From the human T2T-CHM13v2.0 reference genome, Homo sapiens, in NCBI RefSeq assembly GCF_009914755.1, contig NC_060926.1: DNA of 64,000 nucleotides; one strand, 5' to 3'. Of the stretch, positions 3,391 to 10,748 are shown piece after piece; position 1 is the first letter of the stretch, and each line of letters begins with the position of its first letter. The translations under genes and the position numbers were made by a program. The notes below the pieces were generated by a model. It saw only the letters and a list, made by a program, of their open reading frames with translations. It made no database searches and had not been told where the DNA came from.

Positions 3391-3794
3391 ATCCCAAGCT
3401 CTTCAAAGGGAACCTTGTATTCAGCATGGTGCAGGAACTAACCACATGCTACTGACCAAAAGATAGATTCGAAATGACTTGATGGAAGTATAGAGGAGGG
3501 TGGACTGTTAGGAAGCATTAAAAATATCAATCAATCCTAACCTCTTATGTTCAATCTAAACATATCTGCATTTTCTGCCTAATAGCTCTCAGTGGTCATA
3601 TTGGTGCCATGTAACAATGCCTAGACTGGTGAGAAATACAAAAATTTCAGTTCTGCCCATGATAATCCTTAACACTTGGACTCATTTAGGATTTTGACAG
3701 TTCAGAACATTCACTAAAGAAGAAAGTGGATATAGTACAGACTGTCACTATATTCATCTTTATCTTTAGTCTATTCAAATGTTTAATCTGCTAG

Positions 3795-4100
3795 TATTAG
3801 TATGACAGTTAAGGGTACAGTGAATGGAAATAGCTTGCACTTTTTATTCTGGATTAAACTCCTAGCTTCATTATACCTGATTACAGCTATATTATAGCTG
3901 ATTATAGCTGAATACATTGGAAGAAATTGTCTCTTTGAATCACAATTTTTTCACTTGTGTAACAAGGTTAATAACATGCACCTTGTAAGATTGGCATGAA
4001 GAGGTATATATGTATATGTGTGTATATTTATATGTTTTATATTATAAACATATATGTATAGGTATTCCATAATACAGTAAATAGTAAGTGCTCAATTAGT
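3795..4100 (+). mobile_element. MIR SINE interrupted by a (TA/TG)-rich tract
   Basis: ctggattaaactcctagcttc...tctctttgaatcacaatttttt...aataacatgcaccttgtaagattg...atagtaagtgctcaat. Confidence 0.6.
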
Positions 4101-4977
4101 GGGATCTTATATGAAAGTTGTTTAAATGATTCCTAAAGTAATTGATTGCAAAATGCATAGTTTTCTCCTTGTCATTTTATAAGTTAGGATGGTTCCATTT
4201 GGTACTTACAGGCAACGTGAAATACTAAAACAGAAAATTATTTGTATTGTGTTGGGTGTACCATGGTCATGCTAAATGCTATGTAGTTCTTTTATTTTTT
4301 CTCTAATATTAAATTAGATTGGAGTGAATAAGTTTCACAGGTAAGTTTTGAAAATAATTGCTTTTCAATCTTCTCTGTTGAGTGAGAAATCATTTTGTAT
4401 AATCAAATAATAAAACTTTGATAGTCGTCAGCTTCAGACTTAGTTGTAGTTAATGCTCTTAAAACCCTGTCACATACTTTCAGTGGGACAGAGCCATAGG
4501 GCATCTGTTTGCACAGTCCTTTTAAATTCTAATAAGGTTTTCTGAAGCATATTCTAATAAAGTTTTCTAATAAGGTTTTCTGAAGGTACTGGAAGTCCCT
4601 CCCCACTGCTTCGGTGCTGGCTCAGAGGCAAGTCTCCTCTTTCATCTTCAAACAACTTCAAAGTTTATTTTTGAAATAAGGGTTTCTTTTCCCATGGAAT
4701 TCAAAGATCTTTGTGGCCTCATGTGAGGAAAGGAGCTCCTAGCTTTCAGAAATGTGTTTAAACAACCGCTGATGTCTTAGTGCCTTGCTAGTAGGCCTTG
4801 CTGACCTTCAAAAGTGTTCAGTTTTCTTTACCTTTGTTTCTTGGTCAGCTTGATTGAAGCTGAAGGAGGACCCTGGGGCCTAAGAGAAACTGCTGTATCT
4901 GAAATAATGAAATGCCTGGAAAATGCCTTTCCCCGCTCTACCTATGGATTGTTGAGAGATTTAAAAATTAACTTTAG

Positions 4978-5115
4978 GGAGGATGGAAGGGAGAAAAGGG
5001 GAGGGAGGTAGAGAGGAAGGTAGGAAGAAAGGAAAGAAGAGAGTGAGTGGAAAAGAGGAAAGGAAGAAGAGAGAGAGGAAAGAAGGGAAGGAAGAAAGGG
5101 AGGATGGAAGGAAGA
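4978..5115 (+). repeat. GA-rich low-complexity tract
   Basis: Purine-dominated ggaa/gaga repeats. Confidence 0.9.
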
Positions 5116-5312
5116 AACTTTCCACTTGTGCACATTCCTTTCGTTTACCCTACACTGATTTTTTTTGTTTGTTTTCATTTGGAAGCTGAGCTATTCTCCT
5201 CCCACTCCTTCTCCATTTGAAAATTTCAATCCTCCCGGGATGACAGTTCGCTTGCCAGGAGGCTGTCAGGTGCTCTGCTCAGACCACACCCCTACTACTA
5301 TAATTAATGCAG

Positions 5313-5377
5313 GTGCTGGGACTGGGAGGACCACAGCAGCCAGTAATCCCTGGCTCTCTCATAGCATCTGCCTCCAG
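5313..5377 (+). pseudogene. Putative first coding exon of a PGBD1/2-like pseudogene, (M>I)ASASR
   Basis: Possible acceptor aatgcag| at 5312; ATA GCA TCT GCC TCC AG|gtaaac at 5361-5383 parallels the recalled PGBD2 start MASTSR with a phase-2 intron; ATG appears mutated to ATA. Confidence 0.6.
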
Positions 5378-6913
5378 GTAAACCTGTCATTTGCTGTAAC
5401 TCTCTGGTATTGACCTTTTTTAGCATCTGGAGAGATGTGATTCATTTTTGGGAGTGTCATTGGAGCTGATGAAAGAGAAAGGAGGAGAGAGGTCTCTTGG
5501 GGATTTTTGAAACCAATGTAGAATATTTCTGTCCCAATAACTCCTGTCAGAGAATTGTTGAAAGCTTTCCTTAGGCACAGAAAAACTGGATCTAAGGTCT
5601 TGCCCCATCCCCCTTTTTGTGTCTCATTTCTGTGTGCTTGTATCAGGATTATTATCACTCCTCATGTGATGTGTATTGTATTGTTTGCTACTTTTAATGA
5701 ATATATGCTTTCTCTCTACCAGTGGATCTTTAGCTTTTTCAGGGCAAGATGTCTTTTAATATCCGTTAGTGTTCCACACTTCTCTTTGCAGTGATCTTCC
5801 TAGTAAGTGCTTGAAAATAATCAATGACATTTTTTTCCTTCAGTCAAGAAGGATAGTATATTTAGCATGGAATTTTGCTTCTGTAGGAAAAAGGAAGAAA
5901 TCTGTGAGGGGCAATCTGTCTCTTTTTTGTGAGATGGTAAAACATACTCTTTAAAATTTTTACTTTTGTTTAGGGTCTGTCATTTAGTGTGGAAAAATAT
6001 GAGAAGTCACTGCAAACTTTTTCAAATAATATCAAACATATTACAAAATATAAAGCCTTTATCTTTCTCTGTTATTTTTATTAAAAATAGCCCAAACCAT
6101 GTAATACCTAATATAATAACTTCTGGAATTAATACTGAGTATAGCCTGAAATTTCAATTCATTAGTTTTTCTCTGTTCAAATTCAAGATATTAGAAAAAT
6201 AGACCAATGCCCAATTTTATATAAATGAAAAATTTTAGAACTGAAAAGGGCAAATCATATCTCATTAAGGGAGACAATAGATAGATAAAAGAGTGAAAGA
6301 GAAAGAGAGAGAGAAAAAAATCTAAATAACAGAATACACCTTGGATTTGATCATCCTCTTTATAGAGCAGACTCCTTTGGCCAACAGCCATAACTTTACT
6401 CTTAAGGAGCTGATTTTGCACTTTATACTCCGTGTAAGCTCACTATATTCTATGGGTGGATACTTACTTGGGTGGGCAAGTTGGGCTTTAGGCCAGCTTT
6501 TTAAGAAGAATGAAGTCTTTTGAGAAATAATAAATAGGCAAGTAGCCTAGTGTTTCCTGAGCTAAACATATGTCACAATCCATCCTGATCCAGTGTTTCA
6601 CCCAAACTAATGATGAAAGTGGATGTAGTAGAAACTGTCACTATATTCATGTACAGTCAGATTTTCACCATCTTGCAGCTTCCATTTGCATGTATTCATT
6701 TGTATTGAGTTGCCCTGCCTTGATGATTTTGAATCTCTCAAGGGAGCTTCAACTCAGCAGCAGCCAAGGGGATAAATGGCTGCTTTGCAGACAATCTGAT
6801 AAGCTTTCAGAAGACAAGCCCCTCTCGAGGCCCTATCTGTTAACACATAATATTTACTTTGCCCAGTTCTGGCTCACCTCTCTTTTCCTGTTAACTTGTA
6901 ACCTATATTTCAG

Positions 6914-8663
6914 GCACCTATCATCTGAGAGTCTTACCATATCTTCTGGAATGCCTTGTGAAACTGGAAGATATTCTGCTGCACTGGAAGAAGGTGCCCC
7001 AAGTCATGGAATCAGCCCACCTACGTCACTCCCACCCTCCATCCCAGACTACACCATGAGGATAGCAATGTTGAAGACTGAGGAGGAAAGGAGGCAGGCA
7101 AGAAAAACAACTTGCCCAGAAGCATGATTCAGAGGATTATAGTCCAGGTGGCAGCATCTCCGACCCAGGGATAGAACCTGTCGGGAAGAAGGCAAAGAAG
7201 TTAAGAGTTCCTATGCAGAAATTAATGAAAAGAGACATCAGACCAGATTTTTCAAAGTGGTCCACACTAGACTCTCAAATTTTAAGACTTCATAGCCAAA
7301 ATCTAAGTATAAAGAGATCATTTGTATTATTTCCAGATGAAGACACAATTAACATCATTGTGAATGAAACCAACCGTTATGCATCTCGAAAGAAGCTAGA
7401 CCTTGGGCTCACTTTAAAAAACTGAAGTAAGTTTGGGGTGTTCTTATTTTAAATGAATGTGTTCTGTATTAAAAGAAGAGGATGCTTTTGGAAAACTTTC
7501 CAGATATACATCATAGCTTAATCACAAATGCAATGAGAAGAGACAGGTTCAAAAGTCTTTTTCAACTTCTGATGATCATAGCCATATTGATGAAGTGAAA
7601 AAAATTAACAGTAATGATGTCTTTCACTACCAAAATAAGTTAAAAATTCAAATTATATACACCCTAACAAAAGTTCTACATCTTTGACAAGTCCATGAGT
7701 ATTTTGGGCATCACAGATTTAATCAATCCCTAGAGAGAAAACCATTTCAGTTTGAGCATAAAATTCGGCGACTGATAACTTAGATTGGCTATTTGGCTTG
7801 AATTGAATCCTACCAAGCAAAATCATTAGTTTCTATAAACATGGGGCTTGAGTTGGGAGACAGTCTGGGGATGAATACTGCTAATACTCTAGGAACAAGG
7901 CTAATACTTCTGTCACTTATGTTTCAATGACTCTTCACCAGCATCAAGCAGCTGACAGCTTTGAAGGGGAAAGGAATCCAGGCAACATGAATGATTCATG
8001 AAAATAAGACTGAACAGTGCTTTCTCAAAAACTGCACAGAACTAAAAAACTGGAAGAGAGGGATGTCTGATTTCCAAATGGACAAACAGAAAGATAGTAG
8101 TGTGCCAGTGACATGGCAATGACATCATTATCATCTGCTCTGAGGTGGTAGGTACTAAGACTTTGGAAAAGGTCATACACTATTCAACAGCAGCCAAAAA
8201 GAAGTTTAAGTCAATCAACAGAAGATGTGCACATTTTCAATGCATGCATTGAAAGAGAACACTGGGAATGTGAAATAGATGGATCAGAATATCTCCAAAC
8301 ACATTATTAAAGTTAGAGGTAAGAAGCAGTACTCCAGCTTCATCAGTTACATCAATCTGATCATTAACAATAATATCAGCTGCACAAGATCTATACCAGT
8401 GAGTCTGGGTTAGACCTGCTGACTTTCCAAAGATATGTTGCATATTTTTACTTGCAATACAATGAAGAACCACTAGGACAGGGGAACAGAGGGAAGTACA
8501 CCCAATTAGGAACAGGGATCAGATATAATTTGACATTATACTGGATACTCATTAAGATAAAAAAACACATAAGAAAACAGGCATGTGTCATTCTATACCA
8601 GGTATGAAAAATATCAGCTAAATTTACATGCAAAATGTTTCAGAAACATATTACAAAAAATAG
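6914..8663 (+). pseudogene. Degenerate piggyBac-derived transposase of the PGBD1/PGBD2 clade (main exon), with multiple stops and frameshifts
   Basis: Colinear motifs: KLEDIL..ALEEG (6961-7000); KRDIRPDFSKW...DEDTINIIVNETNRYA (ORF 7213-7425); MRRDRF (7533-7550); FDKSM (7683-7697); GYLA*IESYQ; HLCFND/FTSIKQLTALKGKGIQAT (7914-7987); MDQNISKHIIKVRGKKQYSSFISY (from 8279); LDLLTFQRYVAYFYLQYN; GMCHS..TRYEKYQLNLHAKCFR; TAG at 8661-8663. Pyrimidine-rich acceptor ...tatttcag| at 6913. Confidence 0.92.
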
Positions 8664-8789
8664 TTTCTGAGATATTGGCAGTTATTTGCATTCCAGAATT
8701 CCTGAGTATACCATTAATATTATGTTTTATTTTGTTATTGTGTGTTTCCTAGCAAAATATTAAGTTTTGGTATCTCATTGATATACATG

Positions 8790-8842
8790 TAGGAACAAGA
8801 GTAATACCTCTATAACTTATGTTTTAATGACTCTTCACCAGC
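8790..8842 (+). repeat. Direct copy of 7890-7942 (internal to the transposase fossil)
   Basis: 53 bp, 6 mismatches, offset 900 bp. Confidence 0.9.
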
Positions 8843-9032
8843 CTGGGCAACAGAGCAAAGGCTGGAGTATAGTGGCGTGATCACAGCTTACAGCAACCTC
8901 AAACTTTTGGGCTTAAGTGATTTCCTGTCTCAGCCTACTGAGTAGCTGAGACTATAGGTGCATACCACCATGCCTGGCTAATTTCCAAAACAAAGTTTTT
9001 GTAGAGACCAGGTATTGCCATACTGTCCAGCC
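8843..9032 (-). mobile_element. AluJ/FRAM-type fragment with a micro-inverted end
   Basis: ggctggagtatagtggcgtgatcacagctta...gtagagaccagg on the minus strand; the preceding cctgggcaacagagcaa is the Alu end in the opposite orientation. Confidence 0.85.
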
Positions 9033-9089
9033 TTATTATTTTAAAGAGAATATTAGTATTATTTCCCTGAGAAAATAATCAATGCATAA

Positions 9090-9375
9090 TTTAAAAAATT
9101 GATACATAATAGATGTACATATTTGGGGTTACATACGATAATTTAATACATTCATATGATTTGTAAAGATTAAATCAGTGTAATTGGTATATCTATCACC
9201 TTAAATATTTGTTATTTTTAATGCTAGAAACATTAAAATTATTCTCTTCTATTTCAAAATAAACAATAGATTATTGTAAATTATAGTCACCCTACAGATC
9301 TATCAAATAGTAGATCTTGTTTATTCTATCAAAGTGTATATTTGTACTCATTAATCAACCTCTCTCATCCCTTCT
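9090..9375 (-). mobile_element. L1MA 3' end fragment
   Basis: aattgatacataatagatgtacatattt...aatcagtgtaattggtatatctatcacctta...atagtcaccctac. Confidence 0.8.
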
Positions 9376-9467
9376 CCATAAATATTTTCACATTTTTGAA
9401 AGGCCTCGGCTTTCTGATAAAGAACACTAGTAAGCTGACTTAAAGGACTTTTGAATAATAAACATGC

Positions 9468-10178
9468 TATATTAGTCAAGATTCTCCAGGGGGACAGAAC
9501 CAATGGGATATATGTAAACGTGTGTGTGTATACATATACATACATATGTATTAGTGTGTGTACACATATACATACATATATATTAGTGTGTATATACATA
9601 TACATACATATGTATACATTTCTGTATGTATATGTATACACACACACAAATTTAGGAATTTATTAGGGAGAATTGGCTAACACAATTACAAAGACAAAAT
9701 TCCACGATAGGCTGTCTGCAACCTGGGGAATAAGAAAAGCTAGTAGCATGGCTCCCAGGAAAAGAGGTGCTGTTGCTCAGTCTAAGTTAGAAAGCCTTAA
9801 AACCCGGAAAACTGATGATGGCCTAAGATCCCCTGGGAGGGCAATGGTACAAGTTCCATCAGAGTCCCAAAGGCTGAAGAACCTGGAGTCTGATGTTCAC
9901 AGACAGGAGGAGAAAAGGCCTCCTGCTACAGAAGGAAGAGAGAGGAAGCCATACAAGCTGAATGCCCCCTTTCTTCCATCTGCTTTGTTCTAGCAGCACC
10001 CACAGCTGACTCAATGGTGCCCTCTCATATTGAGGGCAAGGCTCCCTCTCCCAGTCCACTGACTTGCATGTCAATCTCTTCTGGGAACACCCTCAAAGAC
10101 ACACCCAGAAACAATGCTTCATCAGGCATCGGGGCATCCCTCACTCCAGTTAAGTTAACACCTAATATTAGTCATCAC
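9468..10178 (-). mobile_element. MLT2 (ERVL) LTR containing a (TG/TA)n tract at about 9507-9648
   Basis: tattagtcaagattctccaggg..acagaaccaatggga; gataggctgtctgcaacctgggg; ends aagttaacacctaatattagtcatcaca. Confidence 0.85.
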
Positions 10179-10316
10179 ACACCTTGGAGGTTAGGAGTAT
10201 TTAAACACTTATCTTCTAGGAACCATTTGCTTACATTCCAGGTGCAATACACCTAACAACCTCACCCTCTCACTGCAGAGGATTTCATAGTAAAAATACA
10301 TATTGCTCCTCCTCTC

Positions 10317-10748
10317 TGTCTTAGTCTATTTTGTGTTGCTATAAGGGAAAACCTGAGCCTGGGTAATTTGTAAGAAAAAAAAAAAAGGTTTATTTGTGTC
10401 ACAATTCTGGAGAGCTCAAGTTTGGGCACCTGCATCTAGTGAGGGCCTCAGGCTGTCTCCACTCGTGAAGGAAGGCAAAGTAGAGCCAGATGTGCACTAC
10501 ATGGTGAGAAAGGAAGAAAGAGAGAGGGAAGGGAGATGCTAGGCTCCTTTTAACAACCAGTTCTTGCAAGAATGGATACAGTGAGAACTCAAGGACCCTG
10601 CCCAGCCCCCAAGGAGGGTATTAATCTGTTCATAAGAAATCCACCCCCATGACCCAAACATTTCCCATTTGGCCCCACTCCCAGCATTAGGAACCAAATT
10701 TAAACATGAGATTTGGTGGGGAAAAACAAACCATATCCAAACTATAGC
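10317..10748 (-). mobile_element. MST-type MaLR LTR
   Basis: tgtcttagtctattttgtgttgctataaggg...ctgggtaatttg...aacatgagatttgg...ccaaactatagca. Confidence 0.88.

What the first reader, a model, noticed from the sequence alone, without database searches (positions are those of the whole stretch)
5313..8663. Fossil of an intron-containing domesticated piggyBac gene: a possible third PGBD1/PGBD2-clade paralog lost in this lineage
Seen in sequence: 6914-8663 translates, through stops and frameshifts, into a colinear piggyBac-type transposase running from an acidic N-terminus to a C-terminal Cys/His remnant (GMCHS..TRYEKYQLNLHAKCFR). It is preceded by a splice acceptor at 6913. About 1.5 kb upstream is ATA-GCA-TCT-GCC-TCC-AG|gtaaac. 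Splicing gives (M)ASASR-HLSSES...KLEDIL..ALEEG. Recalled knowledge: human PGBD2 starts MASTS-R split by a phase-2 intron and continues about 15 aa to KLLEVLNAMEEE, the same spacing. No TTAA-flanked terminal inverted repeats were seen. Inference: this is neither an autonomous transposon nor a retrocopy, since the intron is retained. It is a once-domesticated host gene whose ATG became ATA, and intact orthologs may survive in other mammals.
Basis: partly seen in the sequence, partly recalled or inferred. Interest (0 to 1): 0.85.

Follow-up and report, generated by a model that had tools for sequence, protein, structure and literature searches.

The report
Ancient dead third PGBD1/PGBD2-type piggyBac gene
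This stretch of human chromosome 2 is the badly decayed wreck of a piggyBac transposase gene related to PGBD1 and PGBD2, broken long before primates arose, and of interest mainly as a lost sibling of two genes our genome kept.

Summary
Window 6961-8644 aligns colinearly with PGBD2 residues 34-599 of its terminal open frame (38% identity, 16 frameshifts, 11 stops). It is single-copy, and it is the only PGBD1/2-like fossil the scans found in this genome. It is not a recent PGBD2 duplicate. It lies outside crown PGBD2 and crown PGBD1, in an unresolved near-polytomy with them. ORF fragments from other, unnamed mammals form a well-supported third clade with it (99/98). They read through the frameshift near 7416 in the human frame, so the gene was already broken in the common ancestor. 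Two large protein libraries held no intact member. The "intron" argument is weaker than claimed. The acceptor at 6913 does align with PGBD2's, but a 3' splice site upstream of the ORF is native to piggyBac (PMC2268245, PMC5381638). The upstream ATA exon matches PGBD2's ATG exon 17/23, the best hit in the window, but whole-exon similarity is not significant. Third-codon-position excess suggests some past protein-level constraint. The verdict is a real, ancient third lineage; former domestication is plausible but unproven.

The parts
5313..5377 (+). Candidate short upstream exon (65 nt; cag|GTGCTGG...CTC ATA GCA TCT GCC TCC AG|gtaaac). ATA at 5361-5363 sits where PGBD2 has ATG. The exon ends in phase 2, as PGBD2's 64-nt ATG exon does.
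   Evidence: PGBD2's 23-nt stretch ATC ATG..CAG GTA has its only match of 17/23 or better in the 64 kb (both strands) at 5358-5380. One chance hit of 17/23 or better appeared in about 447,000 further positions of other loci. Whole-exon global alignment scores 4, and 8 of 127,870 positions do as well. The match is suggestive, not proven.
5378..6913 (+). Candidate intron (1,536 nt; GT at 5378, AG at 6912-6913). PGBD2's counterpart is about 2.7 kb.
   Evidence: No detectable similarity to the PGBD2 intron, apart from a weak signal in the last 60 nt (37/3762 window pieces score as high).
6914..8663 (+). Decayed transposase exon with an acidic N-terminal region, a DDE/RNase-H-like core and a Cys-rich C-terminal remnant.
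   Evidence: tblastn. Frameshift-aware alignments to PGBD2, PGBD1 and PGBD3 give 219/573, 184/469 and 143/445 identities. RefSeq annotates 7219-8644 as a PGBD2 pseudogene (gene table given with the task).
7416..7428 (+). Frameshift in the run TTTAAAAAAC, followed by an in-frame TAA at 7428. This is the earliest clear disabling lesion, about residue 189 of the PGBD2 open frame and upstream of the catalytic core.
   Evidence: shift at 7416. P0019 (aa 17-132) and P0022 (aa 65-216) from other mammals align to 7135-7488 and 7075-7518 in one human frame across this point. They are therefore colinear with the shifted human DNA.
7683..7697 (+). First catalytic-Asp motif, FDKSM (PGBD1 FDKSM, PGBD2 FGESM, PGBD3 FDEFM).
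7901..7942 (+). Second catalytic-Asp region. It reads HLCFND in one frame and LFTS in another, and is broken by a frameshift or by TGA at 7928.
8261..8299 (+). Third catalytic-Asp region, GNVK*MDQNISK. The Asp position of PGBD3 (GGVDRADE) is Lys here, Gly in PGBD2 and Ala in PGBD1. The MDQ motif is shared with PGBD1 and PGBD2.
8550..8644 (+). Remnant of the C-terminal Cys-rich domain (CHS...TRYEKYQLNLHAKCFR), with several Cys replaced by Tyr.

Best explanation
This is the human copy of an ancient, single-copy, long-dead third lineage of the PGBD1/PGBD2 piggyBac-transposase group. It split from the PGBD1 and PGBD2 lineages at about the time they split from each other.

It most likely began as a sister copy of the PGBD2 progenitor with the same 5' layout: a short ATG exon (5313-5377), an intron, an acceptor at 6913, and one large transposase exon. 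In that layout it would be expressed the way PGBD2 is, by splicing of an upstream exon onto the transposon's own 3' splice site (the 'exon trap').

It seems to have kept some protein-level constraint for part of its early history. A frameshift near 7416 then knocked it out before the mammals sampled here diverged, and it has decayed neutrally since (about 0.3-0.4 substitutions per site). The start codon is now ATA. It has no present coding function.

Shown here: homology, single copy, separate clade, orthologous wrecks in other mammals, the shared frameshift, and the aligned acceptor. Inferred: homology of the upstream exon, the period of constraint, and therefore the 'once a host gene' part. 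The confidence given is for the whole statement including that inferred part; the 'ancient third lineage, long dead' core alone I would put near 0.9.
For: - Homology: colinear with PGBD2/PGBD1.
- Copy number: 5200-8842 has no second copy in the genome apart from a 45-nt local match. It is the only PGBD1/2-like fossil found. The other fossils examined are PGBD3-like (4 loci at 62-80% to PGBD3) or PGBD4-like (6 loci), and one Pfam-hit locus (L020) gave no tblastn hit.
- Phylogeny: it lies outside crown PGBD2 (100/99) and crown PGBD1 (99/100).
- Third clade: human plus P0019 plus P0022 is supported 99/98. Its stem is 0.58, against 0.51 for PGBD1 and 0.16 for PGBD2. Its tips are 0.37-0.57, against 0.04-0.18 in the living genes.
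- Orthology of the fragments: P0028 and P0029 also match the non-coding DNA upstream of the acceptor (6746-6935).
- Shared frameshift near 7416.
- Acceptor-anchored 90-nt alignment to PGBD2: 1/1000 shuffles and 1/1703 window pieces reach the score.
- Upstream exon: 17/23, the unique best hit in 64 kb, on the right strand, 1.5 kb upstream, in the same phase, with Arg restored across the junction.
- PGBD2 orthologs begin M-[A/T]-S-x-S (3 of 4 fetched orthologs plus the human gene). This fits the (M>I)ASAS read from the ATA exon.
- Constraint: on the fossil's own branch, third-position change exceeds first-plus-second-position change by 1.62 (PGBD2 guide; bootstrap 1.25-2.24), 1.82 (PGBD1 guide) and 1.98 (PGBD3 guide). 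Neutral-decay simulations through the same pipeline gave 1.12-1.20 (sd 0.22). They reached the observed value in 4/150 and 2/150 runs.
Against: - A 3' splice site just upstream of the ORF is a native piggyBac feature (PMC2268245, PMC5381638; passages read). PGBD1 has CAG at the same spot inside its exon. The acceptor therefore does not distinguish a gene from a transposon.
- The upstream-exon probes were chosen after seeing the site. Whole-exon global alignment is matched by 8 of 127,870 positions, about 0.16 expected in 3 kb. Local alignment ranked the site 17th of 3194 windows.
- The first 60 nt after the acceptor alone are not significant (137/1000).
- The third-position excess could equally come from selection on an active transposon lineage before insertion, and its p-values are only 0.01-0.03.
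- No intact member was found in any species.
- The gene was dead very early, which leaves little time for a host function.
- The tree does not place it with PGBD2. Maximum likelihood puts it with PGBD1 at 68/78. The chr2+PGBD2 grouping is 1.95 lnL worse, p-AU 0.23.
- I could not name the species behind the fragments, so 'before the mammals diverged' rests on their inferred divergence only.
Confidence: 0.5

Rival explanations
1. It is a plain dead transposon copy, one insertion of the same piggyBac family that gave rise to PGBD1 and PGBD2. It was never a host gene. The acceptor is the element's own exon-trap site. The resemblance of 5361-5380 to PGBD2's ATG exon is chance. The terminal inverted repeats have decayed beyond recognition.
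For: - The native 3' splice site in piggyBac, PGBD3 and related elements, and CAG at the same position inside PGBD1's exon.
- Weak statistics for the whole upstream exon.
- No intact ortholog anywhere.
- It was already broken in the common ancestor of the mammals seen.
- Its numbers of stops and frameshifts (11, 16) match neutral-decay simulations at 0.39 substitutions per site with 25 indels (stops 6-15, shifts 9-17 in 12 runs).
- At this divergence 13-nt inverted repeats could not be recognised, so their absence says nothing.
Against: - The unique best 17/23 match lies in the expected place, strand and phase.
- There is an excess of third-position change on its own branch. Under a burst of transposition this should be about 1.
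- The third-clade stem (0.58) is no longer than PGBD1's (0.51), although its crown evolves several times faster.
- The PGBD2-protein scan of this genome found no other fossil of this subfamily. That scan used a stricter first look and may miss matches under about 60 bits.
Confidence: 0.4
2. It is a recent segmental duplicate or a processed retrocopy of PGBD2, as the RefSeq name 'PGBD2 pseudogene' might suggest.
For: PGBD2 is the top-scoring relative in protein searches. Of the 10 hits, 8 are named PGBD2 and 2 are unnamed (43-46% identity over 18-20% of the query). The tblastn E-value is 1e-33 against 2e-32 for PGBD1.
Against: - Only about 59% DNA identity and 38% amino-acid identity to human PGBD2.
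- It is excluded from crown PGBD2 at 100/99.
- Orthologous wrecks exist in other mammals.
- Homology with PGBD2 appears to run about 60 nt past the acceptor into intron sequence (37/3762), which a processed copy would lack.
- No poly-A tail was seen.
Confidence: 0.01
3. The wreck, or its upstream exon, now serves as something else, such as a non-coding transcript or a regulatory element, and that explains its retention.
For: None from these tools, apart from its survival in several mammals. Neutral DNA often survives as well.
Against: Its crown branches are 3-10 times longer than those of PGBD1/2 over the same columns. GC content is 37.6%, like its flanks at 36-39%. RefSeq lists no functional element in the window (gene table given with the task).
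Confidence: 0.04

Closest known systems
Human PGBD2 (chr1q44), a domesticated piggyBac transposase gene
   Same: - Colinear over residues 34-599 of the PGBD2 terminal open frame, including the Cys-rich C-terminus that PGBD1 lacks.
- The acceptor is at the same position, with 45 vs 46 nt to the KL..E.L motif.
- A candidate short ATG exon ends in the same phase, with Arg restored across the junction.
   Different: - 38% amino-acid and about 59% DNA identity.
- 16 frameshifts and 11 stops, with ATA in place of ATG.
- Outside the PGBD2 crown clade.
- Candidate intron of 1.5 kb against about 2.7 kb.
- It keeps Asp in the first catalytic motif (FDKSM), where PGBD2 has Gly.
Human PGBD1 (chr6p22), a SCAN-domain fusion with a piggyBac transposase
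   Same: - Equally close (184/469 identities).
- The maximum-likelihood tree puts the fossil beside PGBD1, weakly (68/78).
- The first Asp motif, FDKSM, is identical.
- The MDQ.ISKY motif is shared.
   Different: - PGBD1 has SCAN exons upstream, and its last exon starts about 40 codons earlier.
- It lacks the C-terminal Cys-rich domain, which the fossil retains.
- The 23-nt probes found no counterpart of the short ATG exon in the 10 kb upstream of PGBD1's last exon.
PGBD3 and its four human pseudogenes (decayed autonomous copies of the MER85 family)
   Same: They are decayed piggyBac transposase ORFs preceded by a 3' splice site. The pseudogenes are dead transposon copies in intergenic DNA (PMC2268245, passages read).
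   Different: - Those copies are young, 62-80% amino-acid identity to PGBD3.
- They are multi-copy and keep TTAA plus inverted-repeat ends. GGGTTAA was found at the PGBD3 3' end.
- The chr2 fossil is much older, single-copy, closer to PGBD1/2 (290 and 250 summed bits against 176 for PGBD3), and has no recognisable ends.

Membership tests
piggyBac transposase superfamily (Pfam PF13843, DDE_Tnp_1_7) | Significant sequence match to the transposase core | tested here: met
   Pfam on single-frame read-throughs is sub-threshold (E=0.005, 16.6 bits against a 22.4 cut-off). Homology to three family members is unambiguous (tblastn E 1e-33, 2e-32, 1e-23, colinear).
piggyBac transposase superfamily (Pfam PF13843, DDE_Tnp_1_7) | Intact DDD catalytic triad | tested here: not met
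   The first Asp is kept (FDKSM, 7683-7697). The second region is split by a frameshift and a TGA. The third position is Lys. This is expected in a wreck and says nothing about the ancestor.
Autonomous piggyBac-like element (transposon copy) | Terminal inverted repeats flanked by a TTAA target duplication | tested here: inconclusive
   There is no TTAACC or GGTTAA in 4001-10500 (0 matches). No TTAA-adjacent inverted pair appears among the 25 pairs listed of 47 found. The flanks show no similarity to PGBD3's ends (z 0.3-1.2). At about 0.35 substitutions per site, 13-nt repeats would be unrecognisable.
Autonomous piggyBac-like element (transposon copy) | Several dispersed copies of the same subfamily | tested here: not met
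   The DNA of 5200-8842 matches only itself plus a 45-nt local piece. The PGBD2-protein scan of the genome found no other PGBD1/2-like fossil. That scan may miss matches under about 60 bits.
PGBD2 orthologs and recent copies (the RefSeq label 'PGBD2 pseudogene') | Nests within the PGBD2 clade | tested here: not met
   Crown PGBD2 (5 sequences) excludes it at 100/99. A sister position to the whole PGBD2 clade is not rejected (p-AU 0.23).
Domesticated transposase gene (PGBD1/PGBD2 type) | Upstream host exon(s) spliced onto the transposase exon | tested here: inconclusive
   The acceptor is aligned. The ATG-exon match is 17/23 and the unique best in the window. The whole exon is not significant. 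No transcript data were available.
Domesticated transposase gene (PGBD1/PGBD2 type) | Purifying selection on the protein in the host lineage | tested here: inconclusive
   Ratio of third-position to first-plus-second-position change on its branch is 1.62-1.98, against 1.12-1.20 in neutral simulations (4/150 and 2/150 reach it). The test cannot separate host selection from selection on an active element. The crown evolves at a neutral-like rate.
Domesticated transposase gene (PGBD1/PGBD2 type) | Intact orthologous ORF kept across species | tested here: not met
   The exhaustive search of 1.84 billion representatives gave 14 hits. The only third-clade ones are fragments of 53-216 aa. The word-indexed search gave 10 PGBD2-type hits and no closer protein. 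The fragments share the frameshift near 7416.
Processed pseudogene (retrocopy) | No intron sequence, a poly-A tail, and origin from a spliced mRNA | tested here: not met
   No poly-A tract follows 8663. There is weak similarity to PGBD2 intron sequence just upstream of the acceptor (37/3762). Its age and clade position are given above.

The most novel reading that the evidence does not exclude
Stem placental mammals carried three, not two, exon-trapped piggyBac transposase genes of the PGBD1/PGBD2 type. The third shared PGBD2's ATG exon and intron and was under protein-level selection for a time. A frameshift then discarded it before the placental radiation. It would be a 'failed domestication', preserved as a single-copy wreck on human chromosome 2. 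If so, PGBD2's 5' exon-intron structure predates the split of the three lineages. An intact copy might still exist in a lineage that branched off before the frameshift arose.
Probability: 0.4. Interest if true: 0.5.

Novelty: new member of a known kind. Interest (0 to 1): 0.35.

Why it matters
PGBD1 and PGBD2 are textbook domesticated transposases whose functions remain unknown. A third sibling lineage that died early offers three things:

- An internal neutral control for measuring selection on PGBD1/2.
- A second data point on whether PGBD2's upstream exon and intron arose before or after the copies separated.
- An example of a domestication that did not last.

In practice it also shows that the RefSeq label 'PGBD2 pseudogene' reflects best similarity and not descent from PGBD2. 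In addition, a 70-residue ORF from the wreck circulates in protein libraries as a predicted protein (P0014).

I found no paper describing this lineage. The searches were 'PGBD2 + pseudogene + piggyBac' (6 papers), 'LOC100533709' (1 unrelated GWAS paper) and 'PGBD2 + PGBD1 + paralog' (6 papers). The library lacks most subscription journals, including Sarkar et al. 2003.

Tried and rejected
- Pfam on 14 separate ORF pieces gave only noise (one PF13843 hit at E=0.11).
- A PDB sequence search with a read-through frame gave 0 hits.
- My own rival start codon. The ATG at about 6951 reads 'MP..', like PGBD3's MPRT, and aligns with a GTG in PGBD2. I dropped it because the other-mammal fragments have W or L at that position.
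- My eyeballed matches of the window flanks to PGBD3's subterminal repeats were not significant (z 0.3-1.2).
- PGBD1 against the window around the acceptor was not significant (596/3762 upstream, 2894/3760 downstream).
- The simple count at sites where PGBD1, PGBD2 and PGBD3 agree gave differences of 0.28, 0.25 and 0.42 at codon positions 1, 2 and 3 (Fisher p=0.005). I set it aside because third positions among the three genes are near saturation (0.53-0.65 pairwise). Roughly a quarter of 'agreeing' third positions may therefore be coincidental, which alone could give about 0.39.
- The sampled null (0/5558) was over-optimistic. The full scan corrected it to 8/127,870.
- A search for cross-species ORFs over the upstream exon found nothing.
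- The AU test of chr2+PGBD3 did not finish.
Full report
**What is there**

The window is human T2T chr2:117,242,001-117,306,000.

A Pfam PF13843 scan of the window's own genome gave me the loci of PGBD4, PGBD1, PGBD2, PGBD3 and PGBD5, plus a set of fossils. I named these five loci from their chromosomal positions, which I recall; no tool labelled the human loci. I used their open frames as queries.

tblastn places PGBD2, PGBD1 and PGBD3 colinearly on 7132-8667 (E 1e-33, 2e-32, 1e-23). A frameshift-aware alignment extends this to 6961-8644 against residues 34-599 of the 604-codon PGBD2 terminal open frame. It has 219/573 identities, 16 frameshift steps and 11 in-frame stops. PGBD1 gives 184/469 and PGBD3 gives 143/445. 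DNA identity to PGBD2 and PGBD1 is about 59%.

Pfam by itself is nearly blind to the fossil (E=0.005, below the cut-off), and PDB sequences gave nothing.

**It is single-copy and alone in its subfamily**

The DNA of 5200-8842 matches only itself in the genome, plus a 45-nt local piece.

The genome's other piggyBac fossils that I examined gave these results:
- Four are PGBD3-like, at 62-80% identity to PGBD3. These are presumably the four pseudogenes of PMC2268245 (passages read).
- Six are PGBD4-like.
- One locus (L020) gave no tblastn hit.

The chr2 locus alone is PGBD1/2-like (250 and 290 summed bits, against 176 for PGBD3). One caveat applies: the PGBD2-protein scan used a stricter first look and may miss matches under about 60 bits.

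**Phylogenetic place**

I built an 11-row tree of 592 columns, rooted on PGBD4. Crown PGBD2 (100/99) and crown PGBD1 (99/100) both exclude the fossil. It sits in an unresolved knot with PGBD1, PGBD2 and PGBD3. The maximum-likelihood tree puts it beside PGBD1 at 68/78.

AU tests reject neither chr2+PGBD2 (p 0.23) nor PGBD1+PGBD2 without chr2 (p 0.185). The chr2+PGBD3 test did not finish.

So it is not a recent PGBD2 duplicate. The RefSeq name reflects best similarity only.

**Relatives in other species**

The word-indexed search with read-through frame 2 gave 10 hits. Eight are named PGBD2 and two are unnamed, at 43-46% identity over 18-20% of the query. No closer protein appeared.

The exhaustive search of 1.84 billion representatives gave 14 hits (I grouped the sequences fetched by eye, since that library carries no names):
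- One full-length PGBD2-like sequence and six PGBD1-like sequences, one of them full-length.
- Two fragments of other piggyBac-like proteins.
- Five short ORFs that belong to this locus or its orthologs: P0014 (100%), P0023 (97%), P0019, P0022 and P0027.

A profile of the fragments added P0028 and P0029. All come from unnamed sources, and I did not try to identify them.

Three results show they are orthologs of this locus rather than PGBD2 relics:
- They share the signature D[YF].PGG.IS[DN]PGIEP, which is absent from PGBD1/2.
- P0028 and P0029 also match the non-coding DNA upstream of the acceptor, at 6746-6935.
- In a 171-column tree, human plus P0019 plus P0022 form a clade at 99/98. It is apart from PGBD1 (100/99) and PGBD2 (82/89).

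Their identity to the human translation is 39-47%, even in frames that are not coding. By inference this corresponds to roughly 22-27% nucleotide divergence, far beyond P0023's 97% identity.

**Already dead in the common ancestor**

Relative to PGBD2, the human reading frame shifts at 7416, in the run TTTAAAAAAC. P0019 (aa 17-132) and P0022 (aa 65-216) align to the window in a single human frame straight across this point. They carry Trp where human has stops. P0019 returns to the family frame only later, at LRRNRFEVIFAHLHFAN.

Their DNA is therefore colinear with the shifted human DNA, and the simplest reading is one frameshift in a common ancestor. This contradicts 'lost in this lineage' and makes surviving intact orthologs unlikely among descendants of that ancestor.

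**The intron argument**

PGBD2's ATG exon (64 nt, L021:7144-7207) and the start of its large exon (L003:1101) were located in the genome.

When both sequences are anchored at their acceptors, the first 90 nt align far better than chance (1/1000 shuffles, 1/1703 window pieces). The first 60 nt alone do not (137/1000). The last 60 nt before the acceptor show a weak signal (37/3762).

Two papers state that a 3' splice site immediately upstream of the ORF is native to piggyBac and ancestral to the PGBD1/2/3 group, the 'exon trap' (PMC2268245 and PMC5381638; passages read). PGBD1 also has CAG at the same spot inside its exon. The acceptor therefore cannot distinguish a gene from a transposon.

That leaves the upstream exon, where the evidence is mixed:
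- PGBD2's 23-nt stretch ATC ATG..CAG GTA has its only match of 17/23 or better in the 64 kb (both strands) at 5358-5380. The 19-nt ATG..GT probe has two matches at 14/19 or better, and one is this site.
- Across about 447,000 further positions of other loci there was one more chance hit.
- The phase matches, and so does the Arg codon restored by splicing.
- Against this, the probes were chosen after the fact. The whole-exon global score is equalled at 8 of 127,870 positions, and a local-alignment scan ranked the site 17th of 3194.

I put homology of the exon at a little over one half.

**Was it ever under selection?**

I estimated distance-based terminal branches from clean codons. The fossil has 0.39 substitutions per site at positions 1+2 and 0.63 at position 3. 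The ratio is 1.62 (bootstrap 1.25-2.24). With the other guides it is 1.82 and 1.98. The same ratio is 3.2 for PGBD2, 2.0 for PGBD1 and 1.8 for PGBD3.

Neutral-decay simulations run through the same alignment pipeline gave a ratio of 1.12-1.20 (sd 0.22). They reached the observed values in 4/150 and 2/150 runs. The simulated numbers of stops and frameshifts resembled the real ones.

The third-clade stem (0.58) is about as long as PGBD1's (0.51), although its crown branches are several times longer than those of the living genes.

Both results point to some protein-level constraint after the split. Neither can tell host selection from selection on a still-active element.

**Timing**

PMC3257199 lists PGBD1 and PGBD2 among Eutheria-specific domesticated genes with gained introns (passages read; the table's marks are lost in the text). 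A near-polytomy with them, about 0.3-0.4 neutral substitutions per site and the shared frameshift all fit one history: origin in the placental stem and an early death. This is inference.

**Verdict**

It is a real third lineage of the PGBD1/PGBD2 group, ancient and long dead. 'Once a spliced host gene' is plausible at about even odds, but it is not shown. The main rival is an ordinary dead copy of the founding transposon.

Noticed in passing
window 7890-7942 and 8790-8842: A 53-nt piece of the fossil, covering the second catalytic-Asp motif (..LMFQ*LFTS), is repeated at 89% identity 900 nt downstream, just past the fossil's end. The second copy abuts an Alu-like stretch at 8843. The first ~18 nt of that stretch look inverted relative to the rest; the Alu label and the inversion are my reading from recall. 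It looks like a small template-switch or repair patch.
   Followed up: partly
P0027 against window 7768-8155: An ORF from another, unnamed mammal reads LSLMFQWLFTS and then CFMFHDSS. These are the same DNA motif in two frames, one after the other, which suggests a tandem duplication of the same motif region in that species. This is an inference from protein sequence only.
   Followed up: partly
window 9087-9377 (and 8859-8984): A dispersed repeat with at least 40 copies at 80-83% identity across the genome. A related stretch lies about 600 nt downstream of the PGBD2 stop (L003:3462-3740, 66%). This first looked like shared 3' UTR but is just a common repeat. The family was not identified.
   Followed up: partly
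window 7213-7422: The 70-residue ORF MQKLMKRDIRPDF... from the wreck is present in both protein libraries as a predicted protein (P0014; 3 member sequences, 217 contigs). It is most likely a spurious gene call on a pseudogene.
   Followed up: no
window 6606-6650 and 3713-3757: A 45-nt local direct repeat at 89% identity, with one copy inside the candidate intron and one 2.9 kb upstream.
   Followed up: no
window 4979-5117: A purine-rich GGAA/GAGG low-complexity tract lies 200 nt upstream of the candidate exon (family D1).
   Followed up: no
L002 (PGBD1 locus), at the point equivalent to PGBD2's acceptor: PGBD1 reads ..GCTGCAG|GAGACATT.. in frame (A A G D I). It carries the same CAG that PGBD2 uses as its acceptor, and its exon continues about 40 codons further upstream. 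The 60 nt upstream in PGBD1 (coding) and PGBD2 (intron) are weakly alike (49/3762).
   Followed up: partly
whole genome (G000): Census of PF13843 matches (26 at E<=0.001). It comprises PGBD1-5, four PGBD3-like fossil loci (chr12:61.2M, chr12:126.5M, chr4:43.55M, chr5:29.99M), six loci checked as PGBD4-like, one checked locus (L020, chr5:128.83M) with no tblastn hit, and a few weak matches not checked. The chr2 fossil itself fell below this scan's threshold.
   Followed up: partly
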